From: a virus
IMG/VR virus record: IMGVR_UViG_3300045988_171858
Strand: one strand, 5' to 3'
DNA: 64,000 bases
Made by a program: the position numbers and the translations under genes
The notes under the pieces: generated by a model
What the model was told of the DNA's origin: nothing
Database searches by the model: none
The model's input: the letters and a program-made list of their open reading frames with translations, nothing else
Part shown: positions 40,506 to 60,304 of the stretch, in pieces
Numbering within the stretch: the first letter of the stretch is position 1
Layout: each line of letters begins with the position of its first letter

Positions 40506-40511
40506 GATAAA

Positions 40512-40531: not shown

Positions 40532-40550
40532 AATTTAAACCAGGAATATT

Positions 40551-41255: not shown

Positions 41256-41285
41256 TACTTAAATCTATTCTCCTACAGGTGTAAT

Positions 41286-42674: not shown

Positions 42675-43612
42675 TGGCTAAGTCAAAATATAATATCTCA
42701 AACACCAGCGATGGCGTTCAAGTATCTGTTGATGGGAACCGAGCCGAAGAACATTCTCGGGAATATAATATTGGTCTTGAATATGCTCTCGCTAAAAATC
42801 TCGCTCCTGGTAAAACTGTATCAGTTGATAAAACTATAATCGAGAAGATGTACCCAAAGGTACAGGATACAAGAAAAGGTCCTACCACATTTAAGCCAAA
42901 GGGCGTTCCGAAGGCTACTGGTAAAACCGATCCAATAGACAATATGTCAGCCATCTCTGCAAAGGGAAGAGGCAAACAGGTTAATCTTAACCCCGGAGAA
43001 ACGGACAGGGAAAGAGCCTTGGCGCATAGTAAAGTTCAGACTGCATCATACGATGGGTTGTACACCAAATACTATTCGTCTAGTGATTTTAATCTGTATA
43101 TTGGAGATATTTTAATTGACCGGGCGGCCGGTGTTGCTGTTGGAGAATCACTAACAAGCATACCTATTTACACTATTGGCAATAGTAGATACGACTTCCT
43201 AGCCAGAGGCAATGTAATCGTCAACGGTATTATTAGAATCAATAAAGCGGAGAAAGATTACCTTGCAAGGGTAATTGCACACTACCGCGGCCGGACAAAC
43301 GAATTTAAGATTCTTAGCTCATATGAACAGCTCCAGCTTACATCCGAAGAGCTTGCAAAATACCGCAAGCAGTTAAAGGAATACCAAAACGAACAGGTAT
43401 CGGCCAAATCTGTATTAGACTGGGCAGACCTAGGAAGCTTTACTATTCATATGGTCTATAATAACTCTGACGCTGTTACAGAGGGTGTTCAACAACGCAT
43501 ATCTATTGTAGAATGTAGAATAGTTGGATATGAACATTCAGTAGATATCGGCTCAGACGGCCAATTAATTGATGGATACAAATTCATCGCTAAAGAGGTA
43601 ATTCCAGAATGA
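42674..43612 (+). CDS. third tube-family paralogue
   Basis: 312 aa. FNLYIGDILIDRAAGVAVGESLTSIPIYTIGNSRYDFLARG and the C-terminal ISIVECRIVGYEHSVDIGSDGQLIDGYKFIAKEV parallel the tube protein. Confidence 0.5.
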   Translation: MAKSKYNISNTSDGVQVSVDGNRAEEHSREYNIGLEYALAKNLAPGKTVSVDKTIIEKMYPKVQDTRKGPTTFKPKGVPKATGKTDPIDNMSAISAKGRGKQVNLNPGETDRERALAHSKVQTASYDGLYTKYYSSSDFNLYIGDILIDRAAGVAVGESLTSIPIYTIGNSRYDFLARGNVIVNGIIRINKAEKDYLARVIAHYRGRTNEFKILSSYEQLQLTSEELAKYRKQLKEYQNEQVSAKSVLDWADLGSFTIHMVYNNSDAVTEGVQQRISIVECRIVGYEHSVDIGSDGQLIDGYKFIAKEVIPE

Positions 43613-44094
43613 GAGTTGAAAGAATTGAAGGGTTGGAGTCGCTACATCCAGACGAACTCTCCCCTGATGAACACGAGCAGTTAGCTCAGGCTAAAGAAAA
43701 TGCCGAGGAAGAGCGAAAGGAACAGACGGATATCGACATCCTCCTTGATGCTCTTTCCGACAAAGAAGATGCCCCAAAGATTTATGACATTGAAGCATGG
43801 CTTGAAAAATATGGTACAATTCATGTATCGTCAGTTTTGGGCGGCAAGGATATTTTTATCTGGCGTGTATTAAGACGACAAGAATATTCCAATATGATTA
43901 AACAGGGAATGATGGACAATGAAATTCGCGCAGAAGACTCAGTAGTTCGCCGTTGCCTATTGTACCCAGAAGCCAAACAAGAGTTTCTAACAACCGCTCC
44001 TGCAGGTTTTATTTCAACATTGAAAGAACAAATCATGTATCGCTCAGGATTTGTTCCACTGCAGCAAGCCTATTCGCAAATTAAGATCCTGTAA
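43609..44094 (+). CDS. hypothetical protein (tail assembly chaperone position)
   Basis: 161 aa with an acidic N-terminus. The call rests on position between the tube genes and the giant proteins only. Confidence 0.6.
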   Translation: MRVERIEGLESLHPDELSPDEHEQLAQAKENAEEERKEQTDIDILLDALSDKEDAPKIYDIEAWLEKYGTIHVSSVLGGKDIFIWRVLRRQEYSNMIKQGMMDNEIRAEDSVVRRCLLYPEAKQEFLTTAPAGFISTLKEQIMYRSGFVPLQQAYSQIKIL

Positions 44095-44624
44095 TGAGTG
44101 CATTAGATTTGAAGACGGGGACAGTTGTTATCCCCTTTAATAACACCCCTATTCAAATCGAGGGGCAAATGTTTAAAAACCTATCTGTTCTAGCTAGACT
44201 AATGTCTATGACCGAATTAGATAGGGCCATGAGAATCAACATTGAAGATGCTGCAACAGAAGATGAGCTGTATGAAGAAATCTTCAAGTCCTGCGTTATT
44301 GATGTCCCAGGTATTCCAAAGGGCGTTGATTACAATAATTCCTCAGCCGGATTTGTATCAACAGTTGGCAAAATAATCTTTATAAAATCAAAGGAATACG
44401 TAGAAGACCCGTTCAAAGCATACGATAGAGCAGTGGAATCTGTCCCTATGGTAGAGGCAATGGCGGCAGTAATATCAAGGTTTCTTGGCATCAAATACAC
44501 AGAAGCAAAAAGTCTCCCCATTAACGACCTCTTCGAGATGTATGCGGCTTGCCATGTTGCATTTCCCAATGAGGTTGCCCCAATTGTCAAACAAGAGGAA
44601 GAAAGGGTTGGTCCTCCAGCATGA
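44094..44624 (+). CDS. hypothetical protein (tail assembly chaperone position)
   Basis: 176 aa, with a TAATG stop/start overlap to the previous gene. Confidence 0.6.
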   Translation: MSALDLKTGTVVIPFNNTPIQIEGQMFKNLSVLARLMSMTELDRAMRINIEDAATEDELYEEIFKSCVIDVPGIPKGVDYNNSSAGFVSTVGKIIFIKSKEYVEDPFKAYDRAVESVPMVEAMAAVISRFLGIKYTEAKSLPINDLFEMYAACHVAFPNEVAPIVKQEEERVGPPA

Positions 44625-47600
44625 TAACATCTAATATTGGGTGGTCGGCCCTTAACGATTACAGAGACCGCAGAGAGGAAAGAATTGCTCACCGCAGAGT
44701 CTTGATGGATGCTCAAACAGTTGAGGAAAATAAATCCGAGCAAGAGGCCAGGGACATTGTAGGCTCTGTCGTAAAATACGGATTAACTCTGGAAGGCCTC
44801 GTATTGGCTAACAGAGCACTTAAAAATAAAGAAGTACAACGGAAGGTTGAGCGTTATGTAAACCTAAGCTACCTATCTGATTCTATCAGAGGTACGAAAC
44901 AGGACGCTCTAAATGTCTTCGGTGGCGGGAAAGTTACCTTAGCAAACTTGTCTATGAACGTGGCAAGGGCGTTCGAGGAACTTTCCCCTTTTTCTATTTT
45001 AAGAACCTTTAATACTTCCCATATTATCACTCCATTCTCTACCGTAGAATCTGAATTTGAATTCTCCTCCGATTTGCTAAAGGGGCAGAAAAGATACTTA
45101 AAATTCTTAGCATCAAAATACGGAGAGCGAGAATTAACAGACGCCGACTTTGATGTTGGGCTCAAATATTCGAAGGGTAAACTACTAGACGCATCGGACA
45201 ATGTAGTAATCGAAAATGCAAGACTTACTTTAACAGAGTTTGCAGGCACGGAACCGGGGCACTCAGCAACATCTAACTATAATAAAGTCCTGCGTAGACA
45301 TATAGCCGTTGGGGAAGGAGCATCGTTCCTATCCAGAAGAGAGATTGGCGACCTAGCGAGGAACGTCCCTACGCATACTCCATTTACAATTATTGCAGCA
45401 GATAAAAATGCAAATATTGGAAAAGAGTGGATGAAGTCTGTTGTTGGGCAGGCAATAGCTCAGGGTTTTAACATGGTCAATGAACCACTTGGGTTCATAG
45501 AAGAAACCGGCGGCACCTTGATTAATAGGAACTCAACACTCTTTAAACTGATTCGCAAATATGGCAGAATTAATCCAAATGCAACATCCGAATCAACAAT
45601 TAAGGAATTAGCAACCGGATATGCCAGACATGGCACAATGAAACTCGCAGGATTGGCAGCCGGGTTCTATGCATTGGACAATGCCTCCAGATTGATAGGT
45701 ACAGACGACTCAGGATTCGGTCATGGCATCCTCGAAGGACTATCAACAACATTCCTCGGCGCGAAACTCCTATATGCAGAGACTGTATCAGACAGGTTTG
45801 AAGAATACAGACAAGAGCAAGAGTATGTAGCACCAGGTTCAACTTCTCTGTTAAAACTAGCAGGCTTCCCTCTGGCTGGAGCAATGTTTGGTGGTACAAT
45901 CGCTTACGGCAGACGTGCAATCCCAACAGCGTTGGCAAATAATGGGTATATCAGCTCAACAATAGAGGCTGCAAGAGAAAGCTTTATATTCGGTCGCGGC
46001 GTAGCGACACTCGCAGCTAATACGCCAATACAAGATGCAGTAGCAGTAGGCACAAGGGCTAAACGATTTGCAACAAGAGGCGCGGCAATCGGTGCATTAT
46101 TTGCACTACCATTTCTCCCTGGTGCATTGATAGGCGAAAGTAGTGATGAAGTAAGGGCCGAATATCTGGAAGGCAAAGATGTAGCTATCCGTAAAAACAG
46201 AGGATGGTTCTCATCGTCAACACCAATAGAAGGTGAGGGTGTAAAATATTTCACCAAGAATTGGTATCAAAGATTGATGGCTGATAATAAAGACAAGATT
46301 CTTTATGGGGATAAAGACACAGAAGAAGATCTGAATCCATTCCTAAGTCCATTCGACTATCTAAGAAATCCATACCGCTTCGAACAAATGCACGAAGGAG
46401 ATATGCCATATCCTGTATGGGGCATGGACGTATCTATGGGCGGCTGGATTGGTCGCGGGTTTCAAATGGCCTTTGGCGACGCTATCAAGCCTGACCTGAT
46501 CAATCCAAGGATGGAAGCTCTCACACAAGAGATGCAGGACTCTGGTGAGCCTGACATTATTCCAACACTATCAATAACCCAAAATGTTTCAAATAAACGA
46601 CTATCGCTTATTGGTGATGGCAAAGCAACATATGGCGAGTTGGCTAAGTATGACCCTAATACAGAGTCAGCAAACTATATTGTATCTTCTGGTCTAGACT
46701 TCGTAGGTCTTAAAGGCTGGGCAGTATCAGGTGTGCTAAAAGACTTCGGTATAGGTATGCCGGACTTAAAAACACAATATGCACGCTCGGGAGAAGCCAC
46801 AAATATCGCCAGAGAGTTTGAAGCACAGAACCTCGGTGGTATGTTAGGTTCGGCGGACGTTATACGACGTATCATTCCAATGTCAGCAGACGTCACAGGA
46901 GAGCGTTTCAATCCGTTAAAAAATACTGCTGCTCCAGACTGGCTACCAAAAGGAGATTACTTCAACGACTTCTCAAGGGGCGCATTCTGGGATAAGGTAG
47001 AAAACGGATACGACAGGCTTCCTGGTAAGGGATACGAAACATGGAATCCAGAGCTATCTGACATTGACCCCAACGACTATCCAGACATCGACAAATTCAA
47101 AATCCTATCAGACGTAGCATTCGGCAGTAACGAATACTATAAAATGTATGAGAAGATGGAGGATTTGTATCGCAGGAAAGTCGCCGGAGAAGAAACCGAG
47201 CTTTCAGACGAAGACGCTGCAAGATTCGAAGAGATTTATATTCAATCCCAGGAACGCTCCAGGAAGAAGCGCTTCTTCGAATACAAGACAGACGAAGAGC
47301 TTGAAGGTATTTCAATGTGGGGCAGAATGCTGGGCTCCATATGGGAAAGTACAACCCATAATGCAGAGCTTTCAACAGAACGTCTGACATTCTTCCGGCC
47401 GGCGGGCAAGCTATTGCACCAAAGAACAGCAATAGAAGATTACGTCAAAACTCAACTATCCGAAGGCGACACTGCACTCTGGAACAAGCCATACGAACAC
47501 TTCATTAGGCCATTCGTAGAAGACTCATACAAGTACATAGACTCAGAGCATGTACCGGAATATATCCAAGAGCGAAGAAACGTAGACAACTACTTCGATG

Positions 47601-48391
47601 CCTTAGAGTTCTACAAACAGATGCAGATTTACCGCAAGTCTGCCGGCACTAATAGTTATGAGGCTAATATTGCAAAACAAAAAGCCGGCAAAACTGTTTA
47701 CGGCGCAGTGGCTTCAGGACTAGACACAAGACAAGATGTAGAATCCGCATATGGTGCACTTTCAGATAATGAACGTGCCTACTTCTCCTCTTTTATAAAT
47801 GCAAAAGAATCAGACAGAAATAAAATCTCAAGAATCGTAGACGACAATAACACATCCGATATGTACCGTATGCTATGGGCAAGGAAGGATGCTATCGAAA
47901 ACGGCGATGATGTTTCTGCATTAATTCAACAAGAAGAACAAGACCTAATTGACGAAAACCGTTCAGCATACCAGGCCTATAAGAATAGTGGGGATGCAGA
48001 CATAGGAATCTCATTCAGGGAGTATGTTCAAGAGCTAAGGGCAGCGTCGCTAATAGAAGAGGCAACGGGAATACCTACATCAGACTTCGCAGGATGGGAC
48101 CCAAGGATTGAAATCAAAGATGTCAAACTGAGGGCGTTGCAGCTATCTAAAGAAGATGTCAGGGAATATGGATTCTGGAAATCTGATGAAGAAGATTTGG
48201 CCAGGCAATCATACATCCTAAATGAAGACCAAGTAACAACACAGTTAAGCTCAATCAAAGAAACAAGAGCAAGACGAGAGTTCCAAGAATCGCTATTAAT
48301 AAAAGACCAGTTGATGAAGCGCGGTATATTTGCAAAAGATATCCGTTTTTCAAACACAGGGTTTAGCGACCAAAATATAAACATAGGTTAA
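44621..48391 (+). CDS. giant tail/ejection protein, tape-measure candidate (1256 aa)
   Basis: It lies after the chaperone-position genes. It has Gly/Ala-rich hydrophobic segments (LAGLAAGFYAL, LAGFPLAGAMFGGTIAYG, AAIGALFALPFLPGALIG) typical of tape-measure or ejection proteins. Confidence 0.4.
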   Translation: MITSNIGWSALNDYRDRREERIAHRRVLMDAQTVEENKSEQEARDIVGSVVKYGLTLEGLVLANRALKNKEVQRKVERYVNLSYLSDSIRGTKQDALNVFGGGKVTLANLSMNVARAFEELSPFSILRTFNTSHIITPFSTVESEFEFSSDLLKGQKRYLKFLASKYGERELTDADFDVGLKYSKGKLLDASDNVVIENARLTLTEFAGTEPGHSATSNYNKVLRRHIAVGEGASFLSRREIGDLARNVPTHTPFTIIAADKNANIGKEWMKSVVGQAIAQGFNMVNEPLGFIEETGGTLINRNSTLFKLIRKYGRINPNATSESTIKELATGYARHGTMKLAGLAAGFYALDNASRLIGTDDSGFGHGILEGLSTTFLGAKLLYAETVSDRFEEYRQEQEYVAPGSTSLLKLAGFPLAGAMFGGTIAYGRRAIPTALANNGYISSTIEAARESFIFGRGVATLAANTPIQDAVAVGTRAKRFATRGAAIGALFALPFLPGALIGESSDEVRAEYLEGKDVAIRKNRGWFSSSTPIEGEGVKYFTKNWYQRLMADNKDKILYGDKDTEEDLNPFLSPFDYLRNPYRFEQMHEGDMPYPVWGMDVSMGGWIGRGFQMAFGDAIKPDLINPRMEALTQEMQDSGEPDIIPTLSITQNVSNKRLSLIGDGKATYGELAKYDPNTESANYIVSSGLDFVGLKGWAVSGVLKDFGIGMPDLKTQYARSGEATNIAREFEAQNLGGMLGSADVIRRIIPMSADVTGERFNPLKNTAAPDWLPKGDYFNDFSRGAFWDKVENGYDRLPGKGYETWNPELSDIDPNDYPDIDKFKILSDVAFGSNEYYKMYEKMEDLYRRKVAGEETELSDEDAARFEEIYIQSQERSRKKRFFEYKTDEELEGISMWGRMLGSIWESTTHNAELSTERLTFFRPAGKLLHQRTAIEDYVKTQLSEGDTALWNKPYEHFIRPFVEDSYKYIDSEHVPEYIQERRNVDNYFDALEFYKQMQIYRKSAGTNSYEANIAKQKAGKTVYGAVASGLDTRQDVESAYGALSDNERAYFSSFINAKESDRNKISRIVDDNNTSDMYRMLWARKDAIENGDDVSALIQQEEQDLIDENRSAYQAYKNSGDADIGISFREYVQELRAASLIEEATGIPTSDFAGWDPRIEIKDVKLRALQLSKEDVREYGFWKSDEEDLARQSYILNEDQVTTQLSSIKETRARREFQESLLIKDQLMKRGIFAKDIRFSNTGFSDQNINIG

Positions 48392-48394
48392 TAT

Positions 48395-51300
48395 ATGGCA
48401 ATCAACAATCTAGTGCTCGGCGGTGCTGCCGCGGGCTTTATGGCAGGTGACCCAATTGACAGTCCGATTTCATCGATCGCTGGCATTGGATTGGGAGCTT
48501 TGATCGGTTCTTCAATCGAGGTTGTTAAATCAAATCGGAAAGAGCGAACTCCTCGCGGTTCCGCTGATATCAGAGTTGACCATACTAAATTAAACAGTAA
48601 GGCGAATAGGACATTCACAGAGGACAATTACGCCGCAGAGATGCAGCGTCAGGCTAAACGTCACAGTGCAATGACAAGATATTCAGGGCGGAGAAGTATC
48701 CGTGAAGTAACAGCAGAAGCCCAAAAGAATAGAGGTATTATTACAGACTCTATGAGGACTGCTGCAGTTGAACGTGCAAACAGTTCTGTCTCTAAATGGG
48801 AAAGTGCCGTTTTGCACAACTTCAACTCTTTGTCCAATATGGACTTGTCGGAAACCTTAGGTCAAAGCGGGGCAATGAAATTTATCCGTGGAGAATATAC
48901 CGCAGATGAATTGTCAAACCTTGTTGTTAGCGGCAAACTTACAGATGAGCATTTCAAAATACTGAGACGCGCATCTTCAAACGAATTGATTTCATCAGAA
49001 GTAAAAGCCGGCGAAATCAACTACTCTTCAAAATTAAGAACAGTAGATATGAGCTGGGTCAAAAACAAAGAAGTGCCAAATATAGGCTCTCTTTCTATTG
49101 ACAGAACAGCCAGCAAAGAAGAGAAGATAAACGCACTTAAAGGCTATCTATCAGGCACACTGGGCCATGACGATGCATTCGCAGAAAGATTTGCACATAA
49201 TATCAGCAACTTCTATCCTGGCGCCGCAATTGATATTTCTAACTCTGACATTTCTATCAAGATGCCAAACGGGGAAACAATCAAAGACCTTATCCCAGAG
49301 AAAAGGAATGGGGTCCTGCAATACTCAAAGAATGGCAATATATACGAAGCAAAATTATATCAACCGTTCGCTGACTCTATTGGTGCTACATTGGGCGGCA
49401 TTGAAATGGCATCCCTATCATCAGACGGGAAAAGCGTTATTATTAGCTCCTCAATTGCCGATAGTACTGTCATTGATGGGTTCACTAATCTTGAAGTTGC
49501 AGGATTTAGAGGTCATGTAGAAGGAACTCCATATGGCAAGGCCCTAGAGCAAATGCAAAGCCTTGGCGCTTATGTCGGTCCTGATGACGGTGAGAATGTC
49601 GTAAGGGCGCCGTCACTTGATACAAAACTTCAGTTCAATCCTTCGGACACCGGTAAGATTGTAAGAATGAAAGATGCAAGTTCTCTTGAGGGCCAAAGAA
49701 GAACCTACAATGTAATCAATCAGGCAATGATTGGCCAAACAGGACTATCAGCAATTCCATCTAATCTCCGCTCAAGAACTTATTCTGTATCAAGTGCCTA
49801 TCAGGCCGAGCAGGCAGTAGCTGGTATAGCCCCTCACCCAGAGCGTTCAACAGGCACAGTGTCAAGAGGAACCGTAATTGACCTTGCAAATACTACACAT
49901 GAAGATACAAGACGCATTGCGCAAGCATCTAAGTTGCTAGTAGAACAAGGACTAGGTCACAACTTTAGCGGCGCAATCTTAGCATCAATCGTCGGACATA
50001 ATAGCAGCTTCAATAACACTATTGGTAGTGCAGTAATGGGCATGGTACTGGAGGACGGCAAAACAGAGCAGATGCTTAAGGGTATCCATTTGAATGCTCC
50101 GGGAACTGTTCGTCTCGGACAAGGTGCCTTTACAGGAACAGAAGAGCAAATCGCTAAGATGGCCCAAATCCAAAATGGCAATAATGTTTCCTACAAAGGC
50201 GGCGAAAGTATAGGTTTCTTCGGAGGGAAAGAATATACGATTCCGAAGACGGTGGATTCCTTTACGGTTTCAAGAATTGAGAACACCAGAGACGGGTACA
50301 AATTTGTAGGCAATAATAATGTTGTTACAGATACAGATTCTAACTCGGGCATCAAAATCTTTAACGATGTTAAGTCTACATCTACCCATAGAACAGAACG
50401 TGATTTTGCATTAAAAGAAATCATAGATAGGTTCGAAAGGGAAGGCTCCATTTCAATGGAGAACGGCTCTATTGTGGTGTCGTCAAGAGATACTAGAAAT
50501 CTCGAAAGACATAACCAACTTCAGAAAGTTTTACCTGAGGGCCGCAGCAGATTCTCCCCAAAAGAGTTTAGAGGCGCTATCGAGAAGTTTGTAGAGCAAA
50601 ACGGCGCAGAGCTAGATGTTGCATTGGCTAAGGTTAGAAATACCTACAAAGATATCAATGTCCGTTCAGAGGATTTTAAAACAGGTTATACGCTCCAAGG
50701 TCTAGAGGTTAGCAACTTCAGAGATAAAGATCAAATCAATAGAGCAAAAAATGTAATCGTGGAGGTTATAACCAATAGCGGATTAGATGTCTCAGGCGAA
50801 CTGCCAGAAGATGCTCCACAGGCATTAAAGGATTTGCAGCATTCGTTCAATAAGCTATCAGAAGCCGGGCTGGATTCAAACGAGGCCGGCAATGAAGTTA
50901 AACGGGCAAGGGCAAGTTTATTCGCAGCTAAAGCTATCGAAGATCCTAAGTTCTCAAATATCGCATTGGGAACTATGCTTGGCAATCTATCTCAGGCGCA
51001 TGACAAAGCCCTTAAACGCGGCAATTCAGTAACTCTTAATTTTGCATTGGGAGATGGCACATCAGTTCCTATCCATGTTGGTAAGGGTAACGATATATCT
51101 TCTGCAATGGCGGAATTAATCAAAGCCTCAAGTAAGCGCCAGAATATGTATGCTGCAGGGAAAATTAGCTATGACCAATTATACGGTGCAATCAAGGGCG
51201 ACTATACGGGCCTAGAATCGTTAGGCTCAAAAATGAGTCTGTATAATCTAGCAGGTCTACGTCCTGGCACGGCGGCGCTTACAGGCGAATCGAGCCGAGG

Positions 51301-53398
51301 TCAAAAAATGTCCTGGATGGCTATGGATAGATTCGACCATCTTACAAACTCACACGAGCTAAAAGATGCCCTTACAACTCTAAATATGGATGCCATATAC
51401 GAAGCTAAAGCCAGAGGCATGGAGCTTGAGAGCGGACATGAGTTCTCTCAAGTGTTTGATGCAGATGAAAGAGAGCGGGCCATTCAAATTGAAGACCTAT
51501 TCAACAAGGATGAAACAAAACGACTTAAGGCCTTCGAAAACGGCGGCTCTTTGAGCCATGTAAAACCTCAGGATGGCATCTTAAATATCAACCTGCCAGT
51601 TCCAAAAGGAATGAGCAAAGAGTTCAAGGGGCAAAAATCCCTATCTATTCCAATCCTAGATAGCAACATAAGCGGATACGCAGAGCTTCCAAATGGCAAA
51701 GATGCCACAAAAGAAGCTACAAAGATGAGAAGAAATCTTCTACTCTCTTTATCCGATTACATGAACGCTAAGGGTGTTGGTGGCGTAGCAGAAGAGTTTG
51801 CCGCAACAGCCTATATGAACGCCTTTAAAGAATATAGGGATTTCCAGAAGCAAACAGGTTCTTCTCTTAAAAAAGCAGCCGCAGGTCGGAATTATAGGAA
51901 TGCCTCATACTCAACCGTTCAGCCTCTAAATAGTGCGCAGCAAGCAGTCTTTGACGACGGTATGAATAAGGATAAACTTAGAGTCTTTGTAACCGAAGAA
52001 GCCGCAGCAGAATACGGGCTTGATAAGAAGAGGTTCGAATATCAAGAAATCGGCGATAGCGGTATGTTCAGAGTTATAGACAAAGAAACTAAACATCCTG
52101 TACAAGGCTTGTTTACTCGCGAACCTGCAACTGGTCCGAACTCTGTTCTTAGCACAGAGCTTGTCGTAGACAGAAATATGGGCAAAGGTATGGCAGTCGG
52201 GATGGATGCTCAGATGATGAAATTAAACTCTGGCGACTTTGACGACGATAAAGCTATTATCTCCGTATTGGATCCTAAGTCCAAGGACTTCTCTAAAAAC
52301 AATAAAGGGATGGTCAACATCATGAAGCGCCAAGCAGAAATGGTAAAAAGCCACAAAGATGCTATCACTAAGCTTACACCCAAGCTGAATGAAAGCAATA
52401 AAAAATTTACCAATATCTCCGGCGTTGGTGATGCTACAAAAAAACTTATCGACAACATCATGTCCGGTAAGGAACGTGACATCGAGGCTCCAAGAGTAAC
52501 TGCATTCCATCAATTGGTAGAAGGTTCTCTCAAACGCGCCAAAGACGAAGAGATGAAAACTCTTGCTATGGCAGACATGGATGATGCTGCAAGAAAAGCC
52601 GCAATGTCAGAAGTAAGAGCCAGATATTACATCGCTGAACAGACAGCCTACCTTATGCAGGAGAATACGCTTAAGTCGGTTCGTCTTGCAAATAAGGGTG
52701 GTCTATCCACAAGTCTTATGGAACAGATTGACGAGTTTATGGCAGAGAACCGTGGCAAACACGCGAACTATAATAAACTCGGAGATGTTATCGGTAGTTT
52801 CATGGAGTCGCTATATCAGCATAGTGACGATGATGTAGGTAGGTCTATTCAGGATGCAATCAATACTGTCAGGAAATCTGTTGGAAAATACGGCAAAGTG
52901 ATAGCAGACAGCCCAATAGAAATGGTTGGCGGTAAAGGATTTAATGCAAATTCCAATGCAGCAGCAATAGCCGCAGCAGCTAGAAATAGCAGCGCAGCAG
53001 AGGCCGCAGCATTGCCTTTTGAGGCGAATCCTAGTACCATTAATAGAATAGAAGACGGTGCTTATAGTGTTTTAGAAACGCTAAAGCATAACAAAAACAA
53101 ACTTATCCTTGGCGCGGCGGGGATGGCTGGACTTGCTATGATTAGCAGGTCAGAAGCTCCAAACCCAAGCTCACCTATGTATAACTCCCCTGTTGCCAGA
53201 ACCAATCCCGTATTGGAAGGTAGAACATCAGAAACCAGCTATGTAAAAGACTGGGGTAACGATCCTAACTCTGTTACCATTAACGGTCATGTTATTAACG
53301 GATTCTCAGATACAAGGATTAAACAGGGTCTAAGAGGCCTGATACAAGGTGATACAAACCAAAGGTCAACAGTAACATTTGACAATAGAAATTACTAA
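48395..53398 (+). CDS. giant protein (1667 aa) with beta-like and beta-prime-like RNA polymerase catalytic motifs: candidate single-chain two-barrel RNA polymerase
   Basis: Motif 1 is GDGTSVPIHVGKG (aa 886-898), compared with beta GDKMAGRHGNKG. Motif 2 is MSLYNL...SRGQKMSWMAMDRF (aa 947-980), compared with beta MYMLKL...GGQRFGEMEVWAL. Motif 3 is REPATGPNSVLSTELVVDRNMGKGMAVGMDAQMMKLNSGDFDDD (aa 1242-1285), compared with beta-prime [41 protein letters not shown]. TM-like segments lie at both termini. Confidence 0.5.
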   Translation: MAINNLVLGGAAAGFMAGDPIDSPISSIAGIGLGALIGSSIEVVKSNRKERTPRGSADIRVDHTKLNSKANRTFTEDNYAAEMQRQAKRHSAMTRYSGRRSIREVTAEAQKNRGIITDSMRTAAVERANSSVSKWESAVLHNFNSLSNMDLSETLGQSGAMKFIRGEYTADELSNLVVSGKLTDEHFKILRRASSNELISSEVKAGEINYSSKLRTVDMSWVKNKEVPNIGSLSIDRTASKEEKINALKGYLSGTLGHDDAFAERFAHNISNFYPGAAIDISNSDISIKMPNGETIKDLIPEKRNGVLQYSKNGNIYEAKLYQPFADSIGATLGGIEMASLSSDGKSVIISSSIADSTVIDGFTNLEVAGFRGHVEGTPYGKALEQMQSLGAYVGPDDGENVVRAPSLDTKLQFNPSDTGKIVRMKDASSLEGQRRTYNVINQAMIGQTGLSAIPSNLRSRTYSVSSAYQAEQAVAGIAPHPERSTGTVSRGTVIDLANTTHEDTRRIAQASKLLVEQGLGHNFSGAILASIVGHNSSFNNTIGSAVMGMVLEDGKTEQMLKGIHLNAPGTVRLGQGAFTGTEEQIAKMAQIQNGNNVSYKGGESIGFFGGKEYTIPKTVDSFTVSRIENTRDGYKFVGNNNVVTDTDSNSGIKIFNDVKSTSTHRTERDFALKEIIDRFEREGSISMENGSIVVSSRDTRNLERHNQLQKVLPEGRSRFSPKEFRGAIEKFVEQNGAELDVALAKVRNTYKDINVRSEDFKTGYTLQGLEVSNFRDKDQINRAKNVIVEVITNSGLDVSGELPEDAPQALKDLQHSFNKLSEAGLDSNEAGNEVKRARASLFAAKAIEDPKFSNIALGTMLGNLSQAHDKALKRGNSVTLNFALGDGTSVPIHVGKGNDISSAMAELIKASSKRQNMYAAGKISYDQLYGAIKGDYTGLESLGSKMSLYNLAGLRPGTAALTGESSRGQKMSWMAMDRFDHLTNSHELKDALTTLNMDAIYEAKARGMELESGHEFSQVFDADERERAIQIEDLFNKDETKRLKAFENGGSLSHVKPQDGILNINLPVPKGMSKEFKGQKSLSIPILDSNISGYAELPNGKDATKEATKMRRNLLLSLSDYMNAKGVGGVAEEFAATAYMNAFKEYRDFQKQTGSSLKKAAAGRNYRNASYSTVQPLNSAQQAVFDDGMNKDKLRVFVTEEAAAEYGLDKKRFEYQEIGDSGMFRVIDKETKHPVQGLFTREPATGPNSVLSTELVVDRNMGKGMAVGMDAQMMKLNSGDFDDDKAIISVLDPKSKDFSKNNKGMVNIMKRQAEMVKSHKDAITKLTPKLNESNKKFTNISGVGDATKKLIDNIMSGKERDIEAPRVTAFHQLVEGSLKRAKDEEMKTLAMADMDDAARKAAMSEVRARYYIAEQTAYLMQENTLKSVRLANKGGLSTSLMEQIDEFMAENRGKHANYNKLGDVIGSFMESLYQHSDDDVGRSIQDAINTVRKSVGKYGKVIADSPIEMVGGKGFNANSNAAAIAAAARNSSAAEAAALPFEANPSTINRIEDGAYSVLETLKHNKNKLILGAAGMAGLAMISRSEAPNPSSPMYNSPVARTNPVLEGRTSETSYVKDWGNDPNSVTINGHVINGFSDTRIKQGLRGLIQGDTNQRSTVTFDNRNY

Positions 53399-53407: not shown

Positions 53408-56400
53408 ATGGCAAGATTTACTTTTTCTATCAACGGAATGCTAGATTTAGAACCAATCTCATTCGACAAGGTTGATAAGTTTTATACAACCCAGCACGAA
53501 TTCCTACGAGATACTTCGGTTCTAACTTCTAAATCCAGATATAGCGAGATGCTTCATCTTGCCACATTCGCATTTGATGCCTCGGATGCTAAAGACATTG
53601 AAAGGCTTCAAACGCTAATTGCTATCTGCAACTCATTTCCATATGTATTCATTCGTTCAGATGCGATTGTTGAAAATCATTTGATGCCCTTGAATCTAGC
53701 AATAGGTTCTGGGTATTACATGTATGCACTGCATGAGTTTCAGGCAGAAATGTCTTCAACTGATGCAGACCAGGGTGTAGTTACAGTTTCCCTAAGACTG
53801 CAAATGGTAAACTGGAAACCTCTCGCCAAGAGTATTAAATTCATCTCAATCGAAGAGGGCTCAGAAGTTAAGACTAAATCTGGCAAAGTCAGAAATATTT
53901 CCGAATATAATGGCGAAGATGGAGACCAGGTTGTTTCTACCGGCAGCTATGTGAAATACGTTGATAACCCAGAAGAGTCCAATCTTCTTAACTACATGGT
54001 TGAGAAAAATACGAGTGAAGATATTGAGGCTCTTCTTAACTCAGGTCTAAGTCGCTCGTTTGAATTTAATCTTGGATGGCCTCTTGTTATGACGGACATC
54101 CAATTTGAGGGTAGGCCAAAATCAGATTTCTGCTGGAATCTTGTTCGACAGTTCAGAACATTAAAGACGGTAGACCTAGAAGGCTCTTTGCAGACAAAAG
54201 AAGGCAAGAAAACGTCTCAAGCAAATATCTCAGAAGTAACAGACGACAATGCCGAACGTTACGATGAGACTGGTAGAATTTGGGTCGGATATGTAAGAGA
54301 AAGGCTTGCAGGCACCAATGTCAAAGACGGCGGCGTGGCATTACAATCAATTACCGTCAGACGCAGAAATAGATTTGCCAATCAAACAGTTCAAGGTTTC
54401 GTATACCCATATGCACAATATCTTGGACGTTCTCCTTCTGAAGTTCTAATTACAACTGCCGTTAATCATACTAAAGGCATGGCATCTACAACCGCCATGC
54501 AAGCAATCAAAAAAGCCGACGAGATGACAAACTATGTAAGGGTGTCAACGCCGGCATTAAAAGGGCTAGATGTACTTGCAATCGAAAATCCCCTAGTAAA
54601 TGGTCTAGGCATTAAATATGCAATCCTAGACTCATCTCATGCAACCACATCTGGTTCACTAAATAATCTCCTAATCAACAACTTCACCTTTATTGAATCT
54701 GATTCTTACGGCGCAATAGAATCCAGTAGATACGTACTAGCATCTTCTGTTAACGGATGGAATGACTCTGCCAATAAAGCACAAAGACTAATTGATGTGA
54801 TCGGACAGTATCGCGCCCTTAAAAAAGACGGCTCAAGTACATCCGAATACAACAATATGATTTCCATGATAAACAGTCGCTTGGCTGACGCATTGGATAA
54901 ATCGGCTAAGGCAGAGCTATCAGAAGCTAAATCACTTCAAGAGTCCGATGTCTACAAAAAGGCAGACGACACTCAGAAATCTGTATATATCACTCAATTA
55001 TATTTACAGCTCGTATCAGCCAATACTGCCTCAGGTTCGGAAGAGCGTATAACACTGGAGCGTATAAGACTTCTAGATTCAGAAATGGAATCGTTGTATT
55101 TCGAGGTTATCACTAACCTTAATCCAATTACAATTAAGGGTTTAAAAGAAGACCTTAAAAAAGAAAAGGATTGGATTGACAAACTTGAAGGCAATTATAC
55201 GTCGTTCAATGGAGAGGGCATTCCGGATTTAAGAATTAAAGAAATCTTTGAGAACCTAACTCCAACAAAAGAGTACAAAAGCTGGAAAGACCTGTCGTCA
55301 TTCCCATTTATCTATGACCAAGGCATTCTATCTCCGGATAAAGTAGTAGCATACTGGGATGAAAAACTTCCAGAAATCAACAAGTTGCTGGAAGCAACAG
55401 GCGCGTTAATCAAAACAGACCTAAATATTTACACAACTGCTCCAGCTATGAATGATGCCGGAGGTAACTCAACTACCGGTGCATCGGTTATGGTTCAAAA
55501 CCCGGACGGCGGAACTTCTCCAAAACGTAAAGCAAACGTAGAATTGGTCTACACCAGAGACCAGTATGAACGTGACTACAAGGTAAGCACAGGTTCAAAT
55601 AAACGTTTACTCCCATTGGAAAGCATCGTAGCTTATACAAGGCTTGGTAGGGACTTGCAGAACTTTGGTGGACGGCATATGGGGTTAGATATGCCAGTAC
55701 CAGTAGGATCGCCTGTACGTGTTGCCGATGATGGTGTTGTAGCCGTAGCTAAGTTCCAGATGAATAAAAATGGTAAGCGCGGATACGGTAACGTAATCTA
55801 TGTTAAGCATGCAAACGGAATCGAAACTAGATATGCCCACTTAAGCCGCATTCTCGTAAGAGAGGGTTCTCGTGTTGGTAGAGGTCAGGTAATTGGACTA
55901 TCAGGTAACACTGGTGGTTCTACAGGCCCGCACCTTCACTATGAAATCAGAATTAATGACAAGGTGATTAGTCCCAAGGCTTACTACGGCAAATCTACAA
56001 ACGGCCCATCCTCTATTGCGACATCATCAAAAACAAACTCTTCTTATTCCGCAGCAGCATACGCAAGAGGCGGCTCAAGAGCAAGGTCAAGCATTATGAC
56101 CTTAAAAGAGTTTATCTCTGCTGGTGAAAGTGGAGGCAGTTATGATATTGCCAACTGGTATATAGGCAAAAGGTTAAGCTCAGGTAATAGAGGCATCTCT
56201 AATAAGACAGTGGCCCAAGTAATGGCTATGCAGAGCGCAGGGCAGCTTTACGCGGTTGGGAAATACCAAACCATACCTGTAACTCTTAGAGCTGCTGTAC
56301 AAGGCCTACGGCTGCCTGGAAGCACACCTATGTCTCCATCCGTTCAAGAAAAGATCGGAACATGGTTAATCTTCAATAAACGTCCTGCACTAGGTGCTTA

Positions 56401-59978: not shown

Positions 59979-60304
59979 TGTCTCTCATTCTAAGACCATC
60001 TCCAACGAGCTCAACGGTCATCGATGTAAGAGAAGATGTAACTGCTGTATCAGCAGGCTCAATGTCTGTTTCAGTTCATAAGGATTACGGGACGTTTGTT
60101 AACGGCCCGTTTTCTGTATCTGCATCTCCAACATCAATGACATTCGGCGGATTCTACAAATTCAATCCGGTAGCCTTATCTGGTATGCCGTCTACAATCA
60201 TTACTCCAGTTCCAACATTTGAAGTTACAGTTCCAACAAAAAATATCGGGACACAACAAATATTAAACTCCATCGTGGTAAGCACCATTACGGGGATCTT
60301 TTAA
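59978..60304 (+). CDS. hypothetical baseplate-module protein
   Basis: 108-aa ORF with a TAATG overlap at each end. Confidence 0.65.
   Translation: MSLILRPSPTSSTVIDVREDVTAVSAGSMSVSVHKDYGTFVNGPFSVSASPTSMTFGGFYKFNPVALSGMPSTIITPVPTFEVTVPTKNIGTQQILNSIVVSTITGIF

What the first reader, a model, noticed from the sequence alone, without database searches (positions are those of the whole stretch)
48395..53398. Giant tail-module protein with beta-like and beta-prime-like motifs: candidate ejected single-chain two-barrel RNA polymerase in a contractile-tailed phage
The 1667-aa ORF carries three signature-like motifs in the order expected for a fused catalytic core.
- **Motif 1:** aa 886-898 GDGTSVPIHVGKG (nt 51050-51088), compared with the beta-subunit lysine motif GDKMAGRHGNKG.
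- **Motif 2:** aa 947-980 MSLYNLAGLRPGTAALTGESSRGQKMSWMAMDRF (nt 51233-51334), compared with beta MYMLKLNHL...GGQRFGEMEVWAL.
- **Motif 3:** aa 1242-1285 REPATGPNSVLSTELVVDRNMGKGMAVGMDAQMMKLNSGDFDDD (nt 52118-52249), compared with beta-prime [41 protein letters not shown]. This covers the R-x-P strand and the Mg-binding Asp triad of the second double-psi beta-barrel.

Single-chain two-barrel RNA polymerases are known from SPbeta YonO, from the virion RNA polymerase of crAss-like phages, and from eukaryotic QDE-1-type RdRPs.

Here the gene sits between a tape-measure candidate and a gpD-like hub/lysin, in a phage with sheath, tube, gp25-like and J-like genes. That is the slot other myophages use for proteins injected with the DNA. 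Hydrophobic segments at both termini fit an ejected protein. The motif comparison is from my memory of the universal motifs, not from a search.
Basis: partly seen in the sequence, partly recalled or inferred. Interest (0 to 1): 0.9.

Follow-up and report, generated by a model that had tools for sequence, protein, structure and literature searches.

The report
RNA polymerase hidden in phage tail
A giant, unannotated gene in the tail-gene block of an uncultured ~180-kb contractile-tailed phage very probably encodes a single-chain RNA polymerase of the cellular "two-barrel" type, which the phage probably carries in its particle and injects to start its own transcription.

Summary

The central idea holds, but on partly different evidence. 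No Pfam, PHROG, PDB-sequence or phage-database match exists. An exhaustive HMMER search found six distant relatives. With them, AlphaFold2 gave a usable model of aa 470-1560 (pLDDT 77). Its 50 best PDB matches are all RNA polymerase beta-prime chains or QDE-1. Viral matches include crAss-like virion RNAPs and poxvirus, giant-virus and baculovirus catalytic subunits.

R1242, P1244 and D1281/D1283/D1285 are 5 of only 27 residues invariant across 18 homologues down to 17% identity. The R-x-P-to-Asp spacing is identical to crAss phi14:2 gp66.

The best viral match is gp036 of the cultured Acinetobacter jumbo myophage ME3 (hhalign E 4e-19), in the same syntenic slot: sheath, tube, chaperones, ~1260-aa giant, this gene, M23-peptidase hub, baseplate.

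Packaging and ejection are inferred from position, tight gene spacing and conserved hydrophobic termini. They are not shown.

Verdict: a new, unannotated family of two-barrel RNAP in myoviruses, and a new variant of the crAss/P23-45 virion-RNAP theme.

The parts
48395..53398 (+). Whole gene: 1667-aa candidate virion RNA polymerase. It starts 4 nt after the stop of the upstream giant gene and ends 10 nt before the next giant gene.
   Evidence: 14 close homologues, 6 distant ones, the ME3 branch.
48410..48526 (+). N-terminal glycine-zipper-like hydrophobic segment (aa 6-44). P24, A35 and G38 are invariant.
   Evidence: Kyte-Doolittle segment 25-44. Pfam PF05433 Gly-zipper 2TM in 4 of 11 family members, best E 9e-5. 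Conservation.
49802..53074 (+). Region modelled by AlphaFold2 (aa 470-1560): the polymerase core.
   Evidence: Mean pLDDT 77, pTM 0.57. Foldseek against PDB and BFVD.
49973..50479 (+). Beta-rich N-terminal domain of the core (aa 527-695). It holds invariant D554, G555, G611 and K660, and the motif K-[IL]-[FY]-G-D-x-K-[ST] (aa 654-661; K654 is lost in the ME3 branch).
   Evidence: Secondary structure. Conservation. Its role (N-terminal sheet domain versus an alternative site of the beta-like basic residues) is not resolved.
50876..51019 (+). Two long helices (aa 828-875) just before the candidate second barrel. Invariant K852 lies in D-x-K-x-S. Candidate duplex-binding helix.
   Evidence: helices. 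(K852 invariant in 18 of 18). [quoted passage not shown]
51026..51664 (+). Candidate beta-like barrel (DPBB-B, aa 878-1090). Predicted order: strand 878-884, strand 890-896, helical hairpin 901-943, strand 950-957, helical insert, strands 1062-1066 and 1082-1086. W974, Y1002 and G1094 are invariant. K1005, R1043 and K1081 are K/R in 12 of 13.
   Evidence: pLDDT 70-92 here except one loop.. Not confirmed by a fold match to a beta subunit.
51704..51883 (+). Helical hairpin connector (aa 1104-1163) between the two barrels. K1160 is invariant.
   Evidence: gp66 and QDE-1 have a ~140-residue connector in this place (bioRxiv 10.1101/2020.03.07.982082).
51887..52267 (+). Beta-prime-like catalytic barrel (DPBB-A, aa 1165-1291).
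   Evidence: pLDDT 70-91. The element order is strand 1237-41, R-x-P, strand 1251-59, strand 1267-70, helix 1272-77, DFDDD, strand 1286-91. hhalign aligns this stretch residue for residue with E. coli beta-prime 423-468.
52118..52144 (+). R-E-P-A-T-G-P-N-S (aa 1242-1250). R1242 and P1244 are invariant.
   Evidence: Same R-x-P-x-x-G-x-x-S as phi14:2 gp66 (R-I-P-N-Q-G-Q-S-S), with an identical 39-residue spacing to the first Asp.
52226..52252 (+). N-S-G-D-F-D-D-D-K (aa 1278-1286): candidate Mg-binding Asp triad D1281/D1283/D1285.
   Evidence: Invariant in 18 of 18. Relatives read SGDLDGDK, NADFDGDM (the canonical beta-prime string), QADADGDK and GGDHDQDQ.
52472..52501 (+). E-R-D-I-E-A-P-R-V-T (aa 1360-1369) inside a 46-residue helix. 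R1361 and T1369 are invariant.
   Evidence: Function not assigned.
52583..52678 (+). 32-residue helix (aa 1397-1428) ending in Q-E-N-T-L-K-S-V-R. E1423 and K1427 are invariant. A low-confidence loop follows (aa 1429-1438). Candidate bridge helix and trigger loop.
   Evidence: E. coli bridge helix reads A-D-T-A-L-K-T-A-N. The resemblance is a lead, not a statistical match.
53099..53146 (+). C-terminal hydrophobic segment K-L-I-L-G-A-A-G-M-A-G-L-A-M-I-S (aa 1569-1584).
   Evidence: Conserved in all branches including ME3. Below my 19-residue hydropathy threshold.
53147..53395 (+). Conserved C-terminal tail domain (aa 1585-1667, ...SSPMYNSPVARTNPVL...QGDTNQRSTVTF.NR.Y). Candidate docking module for the tail or hub.
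   Evidence: Many invariant columns. It is the only stretch that BLASTP aligns with ME3 gp036.
38250..44624 (+). Upstream tail genes: sheath (38250-40505), tube (40551-41255), tube paralogue with nuclease domain (41286-42674), 312-aa protein, and two chaperone-like genes (43609-44094, 44094-44624).
   Evidence: PHROG hits. BLASTP to ME3 gp030-034 and 0305phi8-36 gp140-144.
44621..48391 (+). Upstream giant (1256 aa), in the canonical tape-measure position right after the chaperone-like genes.
   Evidence: No Pfam or PHROG hit. 32% identical over 1211 aa to ME3 gp035 and partly to 0305phi8-36 gp145, which is a virion protein by mass spectrometry according to the record.
53408..59293 (+). Downstream giant (1961 aa) with an M23 peptidase (aa 756-856) and C-terminal hydrophobic segments. 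Hub or cell-wall-degrading protein.
   Evidence: Pfam PF01551 E 3e-29. Homologous to ME3 gp037 and 0305phi8-36 gp147 'baseplate hub protein'.
59295..63908 (+). Baseplate genes, including gp25-like 60304-60723.
   Evidence: PHROG baseplate wedge hits. BLASTP to ME3 gp039, gp040 and gp042.

Best explanation
The gene encodes a very divergent single-chain RNA polymerase of the two-barrel (double-psi beta-barrel) class.

Proposed mechanism:
1. It is made late, together with the tail proteins.
2. It is built into the virion, most likely in or at the base of the tail lumen next to the tape-measure-like and hub giants. The conserved C-terminal module docks it there.
3. On sheath contraction it is expelled with those proteins.
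4. The glycine-zipper N-terminus and the C-terminal hydrophobic segment engage the membrane.
5. The refolded core (aa ~470-1560) transcribes the first phage genes from the entering DNA, without the host polymerase.

Shown here:
- The fold-level match to RNAP catalytic subunits.
- An invariant R-x-P plus Asp triad.
- Conserved synteny in the tail operon.
- Conserved hydrophobic termini.

Inferred:
- Catalytic activity.
- The location of the second barrel and its basic residues.
- Virion packaging, ejection and the early-gene role.
For: 1) Structure.
- With six distant homologues in the alignment, AlphaFold2 gives pLDDT 77 and pTM 0.57 for aa 470-1560.
- The top 50 of 750 PDB matches are all RNAP beta-prime chains (M. 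tuberculosis, Thermus, E. coli), the phage AR9 beta-prime fragment (prob 1.00) or QDE-1.
- BFVD matches include crAss-like virion-RNAP proteins (cr50_1, cr118_1), poxvirus RPO147, giant-virus RNAP subunits, ASFV RPB1 and baculovirus LEF-9.

2) Active site.
- R1242, P1244, D1281, D1283 and D1285 are 5 of only 27 invariant residues in 18 sequences down to 17% identity.
- One relative reads NADFDGD.
- The R-to-Asp spacing (39 residues) and the flanks R-x-P-x-x-G-x-x-S ... DFDxDK equal phi14:2 gp66. This signature occurred in 0 of 20,000 shuffles.
- hhalign places the motif in the correct register against a crAss vRNAP profile (E 0.02) and E. coli beta-prime (E 0.06-0.14).

3) Downstream elements. 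A 32-residue helix with invariant E1423/K1427 (ENTLKS versus E. coli DTALKT) is followed by a low-confidence loop.

4) Context.
- The gene lies between tail genes with 3-nt and 9-nt gaps. Promoter-like and terminator-like sites in 40-60 kb are not above the shuffle expectation.
- The order sheath, tube, chaperones, ~1260-aa giant, this gene, M23 giant, baseplate is kept in relatives at 23-28% identity.
- It is also kept in the cultured myophage ME3, whose gp036 matches the family at hhalign prob 99.1, E 4e-19.

5) Termini. Hydrophobic N- and C-terminal segments and a C-terminal domain are conserved in every branch. A soluble cytoplasmic polymerase would not need them.

6) Flanking genes. In 0305phi8-36 the homologue of the upstream gene (gp145) and the protein in the target's slot (gp146) are marked as virion proteins by mass spectrometry. 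The homologue of the downstream gene (gp147) is annotated as baseplate hub.

7) Precedent. crAss phi14:2 gp66 and P23-45 gp96 are virion-delivered two-barrel RNAPs encoded among tail genes (bioRxiv 10.1101/2020.03.07.982082; PMC10770324).
Against: - There is no significant sequence match to any RNAP family: Pfam, PHROG, PDB by phmmer and by profile, and BLASTP against gp66. The hhalign motif alignments are marginal.
- Foldseek E-values against solved structures are weak (7e-4 and above) and global TM-scores are low (0.11-0.15).
- The model coordinates could not be inspected. The second barrel and its contact with the Asp triad are therefore unverified, and no beta-subunit chain appears among the listed matches.
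- There are no proteomic data for this family.
- The 0305phi8-36 protein in the same slot (gp146) has no DxDxD and no detectable similarity. The slot itself therefore does not imply a polymerase.
- A folded 185-kDa enzyme cannot pass a myovirus tube without unfolding.
Confidence: 0.6

Rival explanations
1. It is a genuine two-barrel RNA polymerase but is not packaged. It is made in the infected cell and transcribes middle or late genes, as YonO does for SPbeta. Its place among tail genes would then be historical.
For: - The fold and motif evidence is the same as for the main explanation.
- YonO-type non-virion enzymes exist in related large phages (PMC7824862).
- Nothing here tests virion content.
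Against: - The gene sits inside a tightly packed tail operon whose products are needed late. An enzyme made only then cannot start the programme in the same cell.
- Glycine-zipper and hydrophobic termini and a C-terminal module are conserved in all branches and fit a particle or membrane protein.
- The slot is kept for the whole depth of the family.
Confidence: 0.13
2. It is primarily a structural tail-lumen protein (a tape-measure or ejection-channel protein) that descends from a polymerase. The barrel core is kept as a scaffold and RNA synthesis is lost or irrelevant.
For: - It is the positional counterpart of 0305phi8-36 gp146, annotated 'hypothetical tape measure protein'.
- Both have a hydrophobic segment near the C-terminus.
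- Only 27 residues are invariant.
Against: - The residues that stay invariant are exactly the catalytic ones (R-x-P, three Asp, bridge-helix E/K), which is the signature of selection on chemistry.
- The model is a compact mixed alpha/beta enzyme core, not a long helical ruler.
- A separate 1256-aa protein already occupies the canonical tape-measure position after the chaperone-like genes.
Confidence: 0.1
3. It uses the two-barrel active site for another nucleotidyl-transfer job: priming DNA replication, RNA-templated synthesis as in QDE-1, or DNA synthesis as in archaeal PolD.
For: - QDE-1 is among the structural matches.
- gp66 and QDE-1 are reported to use single-stranded templates (bioRxiv 10.1101/2020.03.07.982082).
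- PolD shares both barrels (PMC10770324).
Against: - The closest solved matches are DNA-dependent RNAP beta-prime chains.
- Every phage member of this class characterised in the papers read here is reported as a DNA-dependent transcriptase.
- ME3 encodes its own DNA polymerase and primase-helicase.
Confidence: 0.08
4. It is not a polymerase. The Asp-rich loop and R-x-P are a coincidence and the predicted fold and its matches are artefacts.
For: - No sequence-level family hit.
- DxDxD alone occurs in 28% of shuffles.
- Foldseek E-values against PDB are near 1e-3 with poor global superposition.
Against: - All 50 best PDB matches belong to one enzyme class, and the independent viral library gives the same class.
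- The motif is invariant over two deep branches, with exact gp66 spacing.
- The secondary-structure order around it reproduces the beta-prime barrel element by element.
Confidence: 0.07

Closest known systems
Virion RNA polymerase gp66 of crAss-like phage phi14:2 (PDB 6VR4) and its Crassvirales orthologues
   Same: - Giant single chain encoded among tail and structural genes next to other giant proteins.
- R-x-P-x-x-G-x-x-S, then 30 residues, then DFDxDK, with identical spacing.
- A non-glycine at the fourth motif position in this phage (DFDDD versus DFDID).
- crAss vRNAP proteins appear among the structural matches.
- Presumed delivery with the DNA.
   Different: - No significant sequence similarity: BLASTP gives nothing, and hhalign against a 10-sequence crAss profile gives E 0.02 over 54-59 columns.
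- The host phage has a contractile tail and a 170-190-kb genome, not a Crassvirales backbone.
- The target has hydrophobic N- and C-termini.
- The bridge-helix sequence resembles the cellular type rather than gp66.
- 6VR4 was not among the 50 best PDB matches.
P23-45 gp96, the tape-measure-fused virion RNA polymerase of a Thermus siphovirus (PMC10770324)
   Same: - A two-barrel RNAP encoded in the tape-measure region of the tail operon and delivered through the tail.
- The target occupies the slot that holds the annotated tape measure in the related phage 0305phi8-36.
   Different: - gp96 is 5002 aa, with the polymerase at the N-terminus of a real tape measure.
- The target is 1667 aa, nearly all polymerase core plus short terminal modules.
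- A separate tape-measure-like giant lies upstream.
- The tail is contractile.
- ME3 shows no second two-barrel polymerase in the 215 of 235 kb scanned, whereas P23-45 has gp64.
gp036 of Acinetobacter jumbo myophage vB_AbaM_ME3 (YP_009595868.1, 'hypothetical protein')
   Same: - True homologue: hhalign prob 99.1, E 4e-19 over 1230 columns.
- Best structural match: Foldseek E 6.5e-17, TM 0.56.
- Identical slot and flanking genes.
- REPAQG ... GGDHDQD retains R, P and all three Asp.
   Different: - Only about 17% identity.
- K654 and several other family residues are not kept.
- It has never been described as a polymerase in the papers I could search.
Cellular RNAP beta-prime subunit, and QDE-1-type RNA-silencing polymerases
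   Same: - The catalytic barrel has the same order of strands, R-x-P, helix and DxDxD loop.
- A long helix with an [DE]-x-x-L-K-[ST] motif follows.
- These are the best solved-structure matches.
   Different: - Both barrels are presumed to lie in one chain.
- No clamp, zinc or sigma-binding elements were recognisable by sequence.
- The beta-type GDKxxxRHGxKG lysine motif is absent.
YonO of SPbeta (non-virion single-chain two-barrel RNAP)
   Same: Single-chain phage enzyme of the same superfamily (from the literature: PMC7824862).
   Different: - I recall YonO as about half the size. It is not encoded in a tail operon and is not a virion protein.
- Direct comparison was not run here.

Membership tests
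Two-barrel (double-psi beta-barrel) RNA polymerase superfamily | Catalytic barrel (DPBB-A) carrying a metal-binding DxDxD loop | tested here: met
   D1281/D1283/D1285 are invariant in 18 of 18 sequences. They lie in a loop between a helix and a strand of a confidently modelled beta domain. Fold matches are to beta-prime, QDE-1, LEF-9 and RPO147.
Two-barrel (double-psi beta-barrel) RNA polymerase superfamily | R-x-P strand-end motif about 35-40 residues before the Asp triad (NRAPTLH in bacteria) | tested here: met
   R1242 and P1244 are invariant. hhalign aligns them with E. coli R425/P427 and with gp66 R-I-P.
Two-barrel (double-psi beta-barrel) RNA polymerase superfamily | Second barrel (DPBB-B) supplying basic residues to the active site | tested here: inconclusive
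   - aa 878-1090 has a compatible strand and helix order and high pLDDT.
- No beta-subunit fold match was listed and the coordinates could not be inspected.
- Candidates: K1005, R1043 and K1081 (K/R in 12 of 13), or invariant K660, K852 and K1160.
Two-barrel (double-psi beta-barrel) RNA polymerase superfamily | Bridge helix and trigger loop after the catalytic barrel | tested here: inconclusive
   Helix 1397-1428 has invariant E1423/K1427, and a low-confidence loop follows at 1429-1438. ENTLKS resembles E. coli DTALKT, but hhalign did not extend the alignment that far.
Two-barrel (double-psi beta-barrel) RNA polymerase superfamily | Template-dependent, Mg-dependent RNA synthesis | not testable with these tools
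   Needs purified protein and Asp-to-Ala mutants.
crAss-like virion RNAP (gp66 family) | Recognisable sequence homology to gp66 orthologues | tested here: not met
   BLASTP gives no significant hit. hhalign against single gp66 gives E 0.5-0.7. Against a 10-member crAss profile it gives E 0.02, prob 2.5%, 54-59 columns only.
crAss-like virion RNAP (gp66 family) | DFDxD motif with a non-glycine fourth residue, preceded by Y-R-[IV]-P-x-x-G/D-x-x-S at fixed spacing | tested here: inconclusive
   The window protein has DFDDD and the same 39-residue spacing. Relatives have G, D or Q at position four.
crAss-like virion RNAP (gp66 family) | Encoded by a Crassvirales genome | tested here: not met
   The phage has sheath and tube genes. 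Its nearest cultured relative is the myovirus ME3, with 39% sheath identity.
Virion-packaged, ejected phage RNA polymerases (functional class: N4 vRNAP, crAss gp66, P23-45 gp96, phiKZ vRNAP) | Protein present in purified particles | not testable with these tools
   No proteome is available for this family. The only indirect support is that, in the 0305phi8-36 record, the homologue of the upstream gene (gp145) and the protein in the target's slot (gp146) are virion proteins by mass spectrometry.
Virion-packaged, ejected phage RNA polymerases (functional class: N4 vRNAP, crAss gp66, P23-45 gp96, phiKZ vRNAP) | Gene expressed with late or structural genes | tested here: met
   By position only. 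The gene is co-directional with 3-nt and 9-nt gaps to the flanking tail genes. Promoter-like and terminator-like sites are not above the shuffle expectation in 40-60 kb. Synteny is conserved.
Tape measure proteins | First long gene after the tail chaperone pair; extended, mostly helical ruler | tested here: not met
   It is the second giant after the chaperone-like genes. aa 470-1560 is modelled as a compact alpha/beta multidomain core. Only Pfam noise-level hits were found.
P23-45-type RNAP-tape-measure fusion | Polymerase domain fused to thousands of residues of tape measure | tested here: not met
   Only about 470 residues precede and about 110 follow the modelled core.

The most novel reading that the evidence does not exclude
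Contractile-tailed phages of the ME3 lineage and its uncultured human-associated relatives carry a dedicated single-chain two-barrel RNA polymerase in the tail, between the tape-measure-like protein and the hub. They shoot it through the tube ahead of, or along with, the DNA. The enzyme anchors at the membrane by its glycine-zipper end, starts phage transcription independently of the host polymerase and may help draw the genome in. This would be the first tail-delivered polymerase in a myovirus and a third, independent sequence family of injected two-barrel RNAPs. A structural relative in the Ma-LMM01 group of cyanophages (MaMV-DC ORF65L) hints that such enzymes are widespread and overlooked.
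Probability: 0.5. Interest if true: 0.8.

Novelty: new variant of a known kind. Interest (0 to 1): 0.72.

Why it matters
- Injected RNA polymerases let a phage start its programme without the host enzyme and make early infection resistant to host-directed inhibitors and to some defences.
- Two-barrel versions are known from crAss-like phages and one Thermus siphovirus. Jumbo myoviruses of the phiKZ type use multisubunit enzymes carried in the head.
- A single-chain two-barrel enzyme encoded in the tail operon of myoviruses would extend the strategy to the third tail type.
- It raises a mechanical question: how does a 185-kDa enzyme leave through a contractile tail?
- It adds a deep branch to the evolutionary tree that links phage polymerases, cellular RNAP and eukaryotic silencing polymerases.
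- It is directly testable, because a homologue sits in a cultured Acinetobacter baumannii phage (ME3) that is of therapeutic interest.
- It also gives a function to a gene conserved in a group of 170-190-kb phages found in human metagenomes.

Tried and rejected
- Pfam and PHROG scans of the protein found no relevant family. A Pfam scan of 11 family members found only an N-terminal glycine zipper and noise.
- phmmer and a family profile against PDB sequences found only noise.
- tblastn against 50,697 phage records found no match.
- BLASTP and hhalign against single gp66 gave nothing significant.
- The word-indexed protein search found only close relatives. Repeating it with the family alignment returned nothing new, a wasted search.
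- The first AlphaFold2 run on aa 760-1560 with the shallow alignment gave pLDDT 50 and was discarded.
- hhalign of the family against 0305phi8-36 gp146 (the positional counterpart) showed no similarity, and gp146 has no DxDxD. The idea that the whole slot is homologous across that supergroup is therefore not supported.
- hhalign of aa 500-1150 against E. coli beta gave nothing. The beta-like barrel could not be supported by sequence.
- Reference bacterial and archaeal genomes hold no relatives, so there are no prophage copies and no host clue.
- I tried to locate the YonO-like gene of 0305phi8-36 by accession arithmetic. This failed and was dropped.
- I scanned ME3 (20-235 kb) for a second R-x-P...DxDxD protein and found none. 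gp187 (1183 aa) lacks the motif. The first 20 kb were not scanned.

Full report
**1. What is in the sequence**

The ORF at 48395-53398 (+) runs from ATG to TAA and encodes 1667 aa. I fetched E. coli rpoB and rpoC.

The gene is the middle one of three co-directional giants: 1256 aa at 44621-48391, the target, and 1961 aa at 53408-59293. The gaps between them are 3 nt and 9 nt. The window is the structural module of a tailed phage:
- terminase at 12521
- portal at 17664
- major capsid protein at 22007
- sheath at 38250-40505
- tube at 40551-41255
- a tube paralogue with a nuclease domain at 41286-42674
- two chaperone-like genes
- the three giants
- a gp25-like baseplate gene at 60304-60723

**2. 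Ordinary annotation tools are blind to it**

Pfam, PHROGs, phmmer against all PDB sequences and tblastn against 50,697 phage genomes give nothing for this protein. The word-indexed protein search finds only 14 near-identical proteins (64-100% identity, all about 1667 aa) on metagenomic contigs of up to 188 kb. That says little at such high identity.

**3. Reaching distant relatives**

An exhaustive phmmer scan of 1.84 billion cluster representatives with aa 760-1560 found six more proteins (P0015-P0020). They are 1625-2037 aa long, 25-30% identical, with E-values from 1e-67 to 8e-12. IMG/VR holds 24 loci of the family on contigs of 65-188 kb, many of them 170-188 kb. The exact protein occurs in a human metagenome assembly. 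No relative exists in 185,579 reference bacterial and archaeal genomes.

**4. Structure**

- With the shallow alignment, AlphaFold2 failed (pLDDT 50).
- With the six distant homologues added, aa 470-1560 folded with mean pLDDT 77 and pTM 0.57.
- Foldseek against the PDB gave 750 matches at E <= 10. The best 50 are without exception RNA polymerase beta-prime chains (M. tuberculosis, M. smegmatis, Thermus, E. coli, C. difficile, P. gingivalis, Streptomyces), the beta-prime fragment of phage AR9 non-virion RNAP (prob 1.00) or QDE-1.
- The E-values are modest (7e-4 to 6e-3) and global TM-scores are low, as expected for a multidomain protein compared with much larger chains. The uniformity of the hit list is the informative point.
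- Against predicted viral structures the same class appears: crAss-like phage virion-RNAP proteins (mis-named 'DNA helicase' in cr50_1 and cr118_1), poxvirus RPO147, giant-virus RNAP subunits, ASFV RPB1 and baculovirus and nudivirus LEF-9.

**5. The catalytic motif**

I aligned 18 sequences from two deep branches, with identity to the window protein down to 17%. Only 27 of 1667 positions are invariant. Five of them are R1242, P1244, D1281, D1283 and D1285.

Relatives read SGDLDGDK, QADADGDK, GGDHDQDQ and, in P0020, NADFDGDM, which is the canonical beta-prime string.

The model places these residues as the beta-prime barrel does: strand 1237-41, R-x-P, strand 1251-59, strand 1267-70, helix 1272-77, DFDDD loop, strand 1286-91. 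hhalign aligns this stretch with E. coli beta-prime 423-468 in the same register.

The closest sequence-level likeness is to crAss phi14:2 gp66. Both read R-x-P-x-x-G-x-x-S, then 30 residues, then DFDxDK, with an identical 39-residue distance from R to the first Asp.

Chance estimates from shuffles of the protein:

| Pattern | Shuffles containing it |
|---|---|
| DxDxD alone | 28% |
| RxP-x(30-45)-DxDxD | 0.8% |
| gp66-type signature | 0 of 20,000 |

Profile-profile comparison finds the right register but is only marginal. E is 0.02 against a ten-member crAss vRNAP profile that I built, and 0.06-0.14 against E. coli beta-prime. This agrees with the published remark that two-barrel families share no significant similarity beyond the DxDxD region (PMC10770324).

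**6. Other elements of the core**

- *After the barrel.* A 46-residue helix carries invariant R1361 and T1369. A 32-residue helix (1397-1428) follows and ends in QENTLKSVR, with invariant E1423 and K1427. A low-confidence loop comes next. The E. coli bridge helix reads ADTALKTAN. I treat this as a candidate bridge helix and trigger loop, not as proven.
- *Before the barrel.* A helical hairpin (1104-1163, invariant K1160) sits in the place of the connector described for gp66 and QDE-1 (bioRxiv 10.1101/2020.03.07.982082).
- *aa 878-1090.* The predicted order is strand, strand, long helical hairpin, strand, helical insert, strand, strand. This is compatible with a second barrel carrying the 'extended helix' reported for gp66 and QDE-1 (PMC10770324). 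Two long helices with invariant K852 precede it.

**7.

K897 and K971 vary in the distant homologues, and motif 1 is largely deleted in some of them.

What is conserved there:
- W974, Y1002 and G1094 (invariant)
- S1082 (17 of 18 sequences)
- K1005, R1043 and K1081 (K/R in 12 of 13 sequences)

An alternative pair of conserved lysines, K654/K660 in K-I-F-G-D-x-K-S, lies in a beta-rich domain further upstream. K660 is invariant, while K654 is lost in the ME3 branch.

No beta-subunit chain is among the listed fold matches, hhalign against E. coli beta found nothing, and I could not inspect coordinates. The second barrel is therefore plausible but unverified.

**8. A cultured relative and conserved synteny**

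The best viral structural match (E 6.5e-17, TM 0.56) is an uncharacterised protein of Acinetobacter jumbo myophage vB_AbaM_ME3. ME3 also has the nearest sheath protein of any sequenced phage, at 39% identity.

Its tail module is collinear with the window gene for gene:

| Window gene | ME3 gene | Note |
|---|---|---|
| tube | gp030 | |
| tube paralogue | gp031 | |
| 312-aa protein | gp032 | |
| chaperone-like pair | gp033/gp034 | |
| 1256-aa giant | gp035 | 32% identity over 1211 aa |
| target | gp036 | 1603 aa, 'hypothetical protein' |
| M23 peptidase giant | gp037 | |
| baseplate genes | gp039-gp042 | |

The family profile matches gp036 with hhalign probability 99.1 and E 4e-19 over 1230 columns. 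gp036 keeps REPAQG...GGDHDQD. The same gene order holds on contigs of P0020 and P0018.

In the more distant Bacillus phage 0305phi8-36 the flanking genes are homologous: gp145, a virion protein by mass spectrometry, and gp147, the baseplate hub. The gene in the slot is gp146, annotated 'hypothetical tape measure protein' and also a virion protein. It has no DxDxD and no detectable similarity to the target.

**9. Is it known?**

Full-text searches found no paper that calls ME3 gp036 or any relative a polymerase. The ME3 genome note and two comparative studies do not mention one. None of the proteins carries a name in the source databases.

**10. How it probably works**

*Shown:* a two-barrel-type fold with an intact, invariant catalytic loop; a fixed place inside the tail operon; and conserved hydrophobic termini. 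The N-terminus is glycine-zipper-like (Pfam PF05433 in 4 of 11 members). A hydrophobic stretch near the C-terminus is followed by a highly conserved 80-residue module.

*Inferred:* the enzyme is made late and incorporated into the tail, with the C-terminal module as docking element. It is expelled on contraction together with the neighbouring giants, and it transcribes early genes from the incoming DNA.

The logic is the one that holds for N4, crAss and P23-45. A polymerase made only with the tail proteins can serve the next cell, not the present one. A soluble intracellular enzyme has no use for membrane-type termini.

In ME3 no other ORF of 300 aa or more in 215 of 235 kb carries R-x-P...DxDxD, and no RNAP is annotated. 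Later transcription would then presumably fall to the host enzyme, as reported for phi14:2.

My estimates:
- about 0.9 that this is a two-barrel RNAP homologue
- about 0.75 that it is catalytically active
- about 0.6 that it is virion-borne and ejected

**11. Rivals**

| Rival | Weight | Main point |
|---|---|---|
| Non-packaged polymerase | 0.13 | Fits the fold but not the termini or the operon logic. |
| Polymerase-derived structural or tape-measure protein | 0.10 | Fits the slot, but not the selective retention of the catalytic residues or the compact model. |
| Different nucleotidyl-transfer role | 0.08 | Cannot be excluded without biochemistry. |
| Chance or artefact | 0.07 | Hard to reconcile with two independent libraries giving the same enzyme class and with motif invariance across two deep branches. 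|

**12. Classification**

It works like the crAss gp66 and P23-45 gp96 class of injected two-barrel polymerases. It is not a member of either sequence family. The homology test to gp66 fails, and there is no tape-measure fusion. It belongs to the two-barrel superfamily on the features I could test.

I rate it a new variant of a known kind. The sequence family is new, the tail type (contractile) is new for this strategy, and the terminal modules are new. Interest is high for phage transcription and RNAP evolution, and a cultured member makes it directly testable. It is tempered by the fact that activity and packaging are still predictions.

Noticed in passing
window 41286-42674 (+): The second tube-like gene (462 aa) is a tube paralogue fused to a C-terminal nuclease-like domain. 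It hits PHROG 452 (endonuclease) at aa 306-394. The orthologue on the P0020 contig carries Pfam SNase. A stretch also matches ME3 gp037. A nuclease attached to a tail-tube paralogue, just upstream of a candidate injected polymerase, is unusual.
   Followed up: partly
L041 (Microcystis phage MaMV-DC, KF356199) record 49224-54257, minus strand (ORF65L): This 1677-aa 'hypothetical protein' is presumed, from its size, to be the BFVD entry that matches the target model (Foldseek E 1.4e-5). It carries QRTPMG...(36 aa)...EGDADGDQ, that is R-x-P plus DxDGD. It lies about 33 kb from the sheath gene, not in the tail module. It is a further unannotated two-barrel RNAP candidate, in the Ma-LMM01 group of cyanophages. 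ORF82L (3560 aa) contains GDFDGD at aa 2537 and was not examined.
   Followed up: partly
L006 (Bacillus phage 0305phi8-36) 14624-22237, gp146: This is the positional counterpart of the target and is annotated as tape measure. It has no DxDxD and no detectable similarity, yet it shares a hydrophobic segment near its C-terminus. Either the slot was taken over by a different gene, or divergence is beyond detection. Which giant measures the tail in these phages is open.
   Followed up: partly
window 53408-59293 (+): The 1961-aa hub-like giant has an M23 peptidase at aa 756-856 and two strongly hydrophobic stretches near its C-terminus (aa 1747-1769 and 1843-1884). All three giants may be membrane-active ejection proteins.
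   Followed up: partly
window 32768-36334 (+): A 1188-aa ORF upstream of the sheath has no PHROG hit. It contains a DFDND string at aa 500-504 without an R-x-P partner, so this is probably chance.
   Followed up: no
L047 (ME3) record 187426-187638, gp218; record 200618-204169, gp187: ME3 annotates a 70-aa 'baculo_LEF5_C superfamily protein'. From memory, LEF-5 is a TFIIS-like factor of the baculovirus two-barrel RNAP. Its sequence has a CxxC...CxxC-like pattern. ME3 also has an 1183-aa hypothetical protein among small early-type genes, with no DxDxD. Either could relate to phage transcription.
   Followed up: no
loci L007-L030 (IMG/VR) and L043: The phage family forms at least three sub-branches (64-100%, about 28% and about 25% identity to the window protein). 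Many of the contigs are 170-188 kb. Several sample numbers are of the 7000000xxx type, which I recall as Human Microbiome Project assemblies, and the exact protein is in a human metagenome sample. No prophage copies exist in reference genomes. The host is unknown.
   Followed up: partly
window 41333-41355 (+): This is the only strong terminator-like hairpin on the coding strand in 40-60 kb (10-bp stem, 7 GC pairs, T-run). It sits just after the major tube gene, inside the first codons of the tube paralogue. It may act as an attenuator that lowers expression of everything downstream, including the three giants.
   Followed up: no
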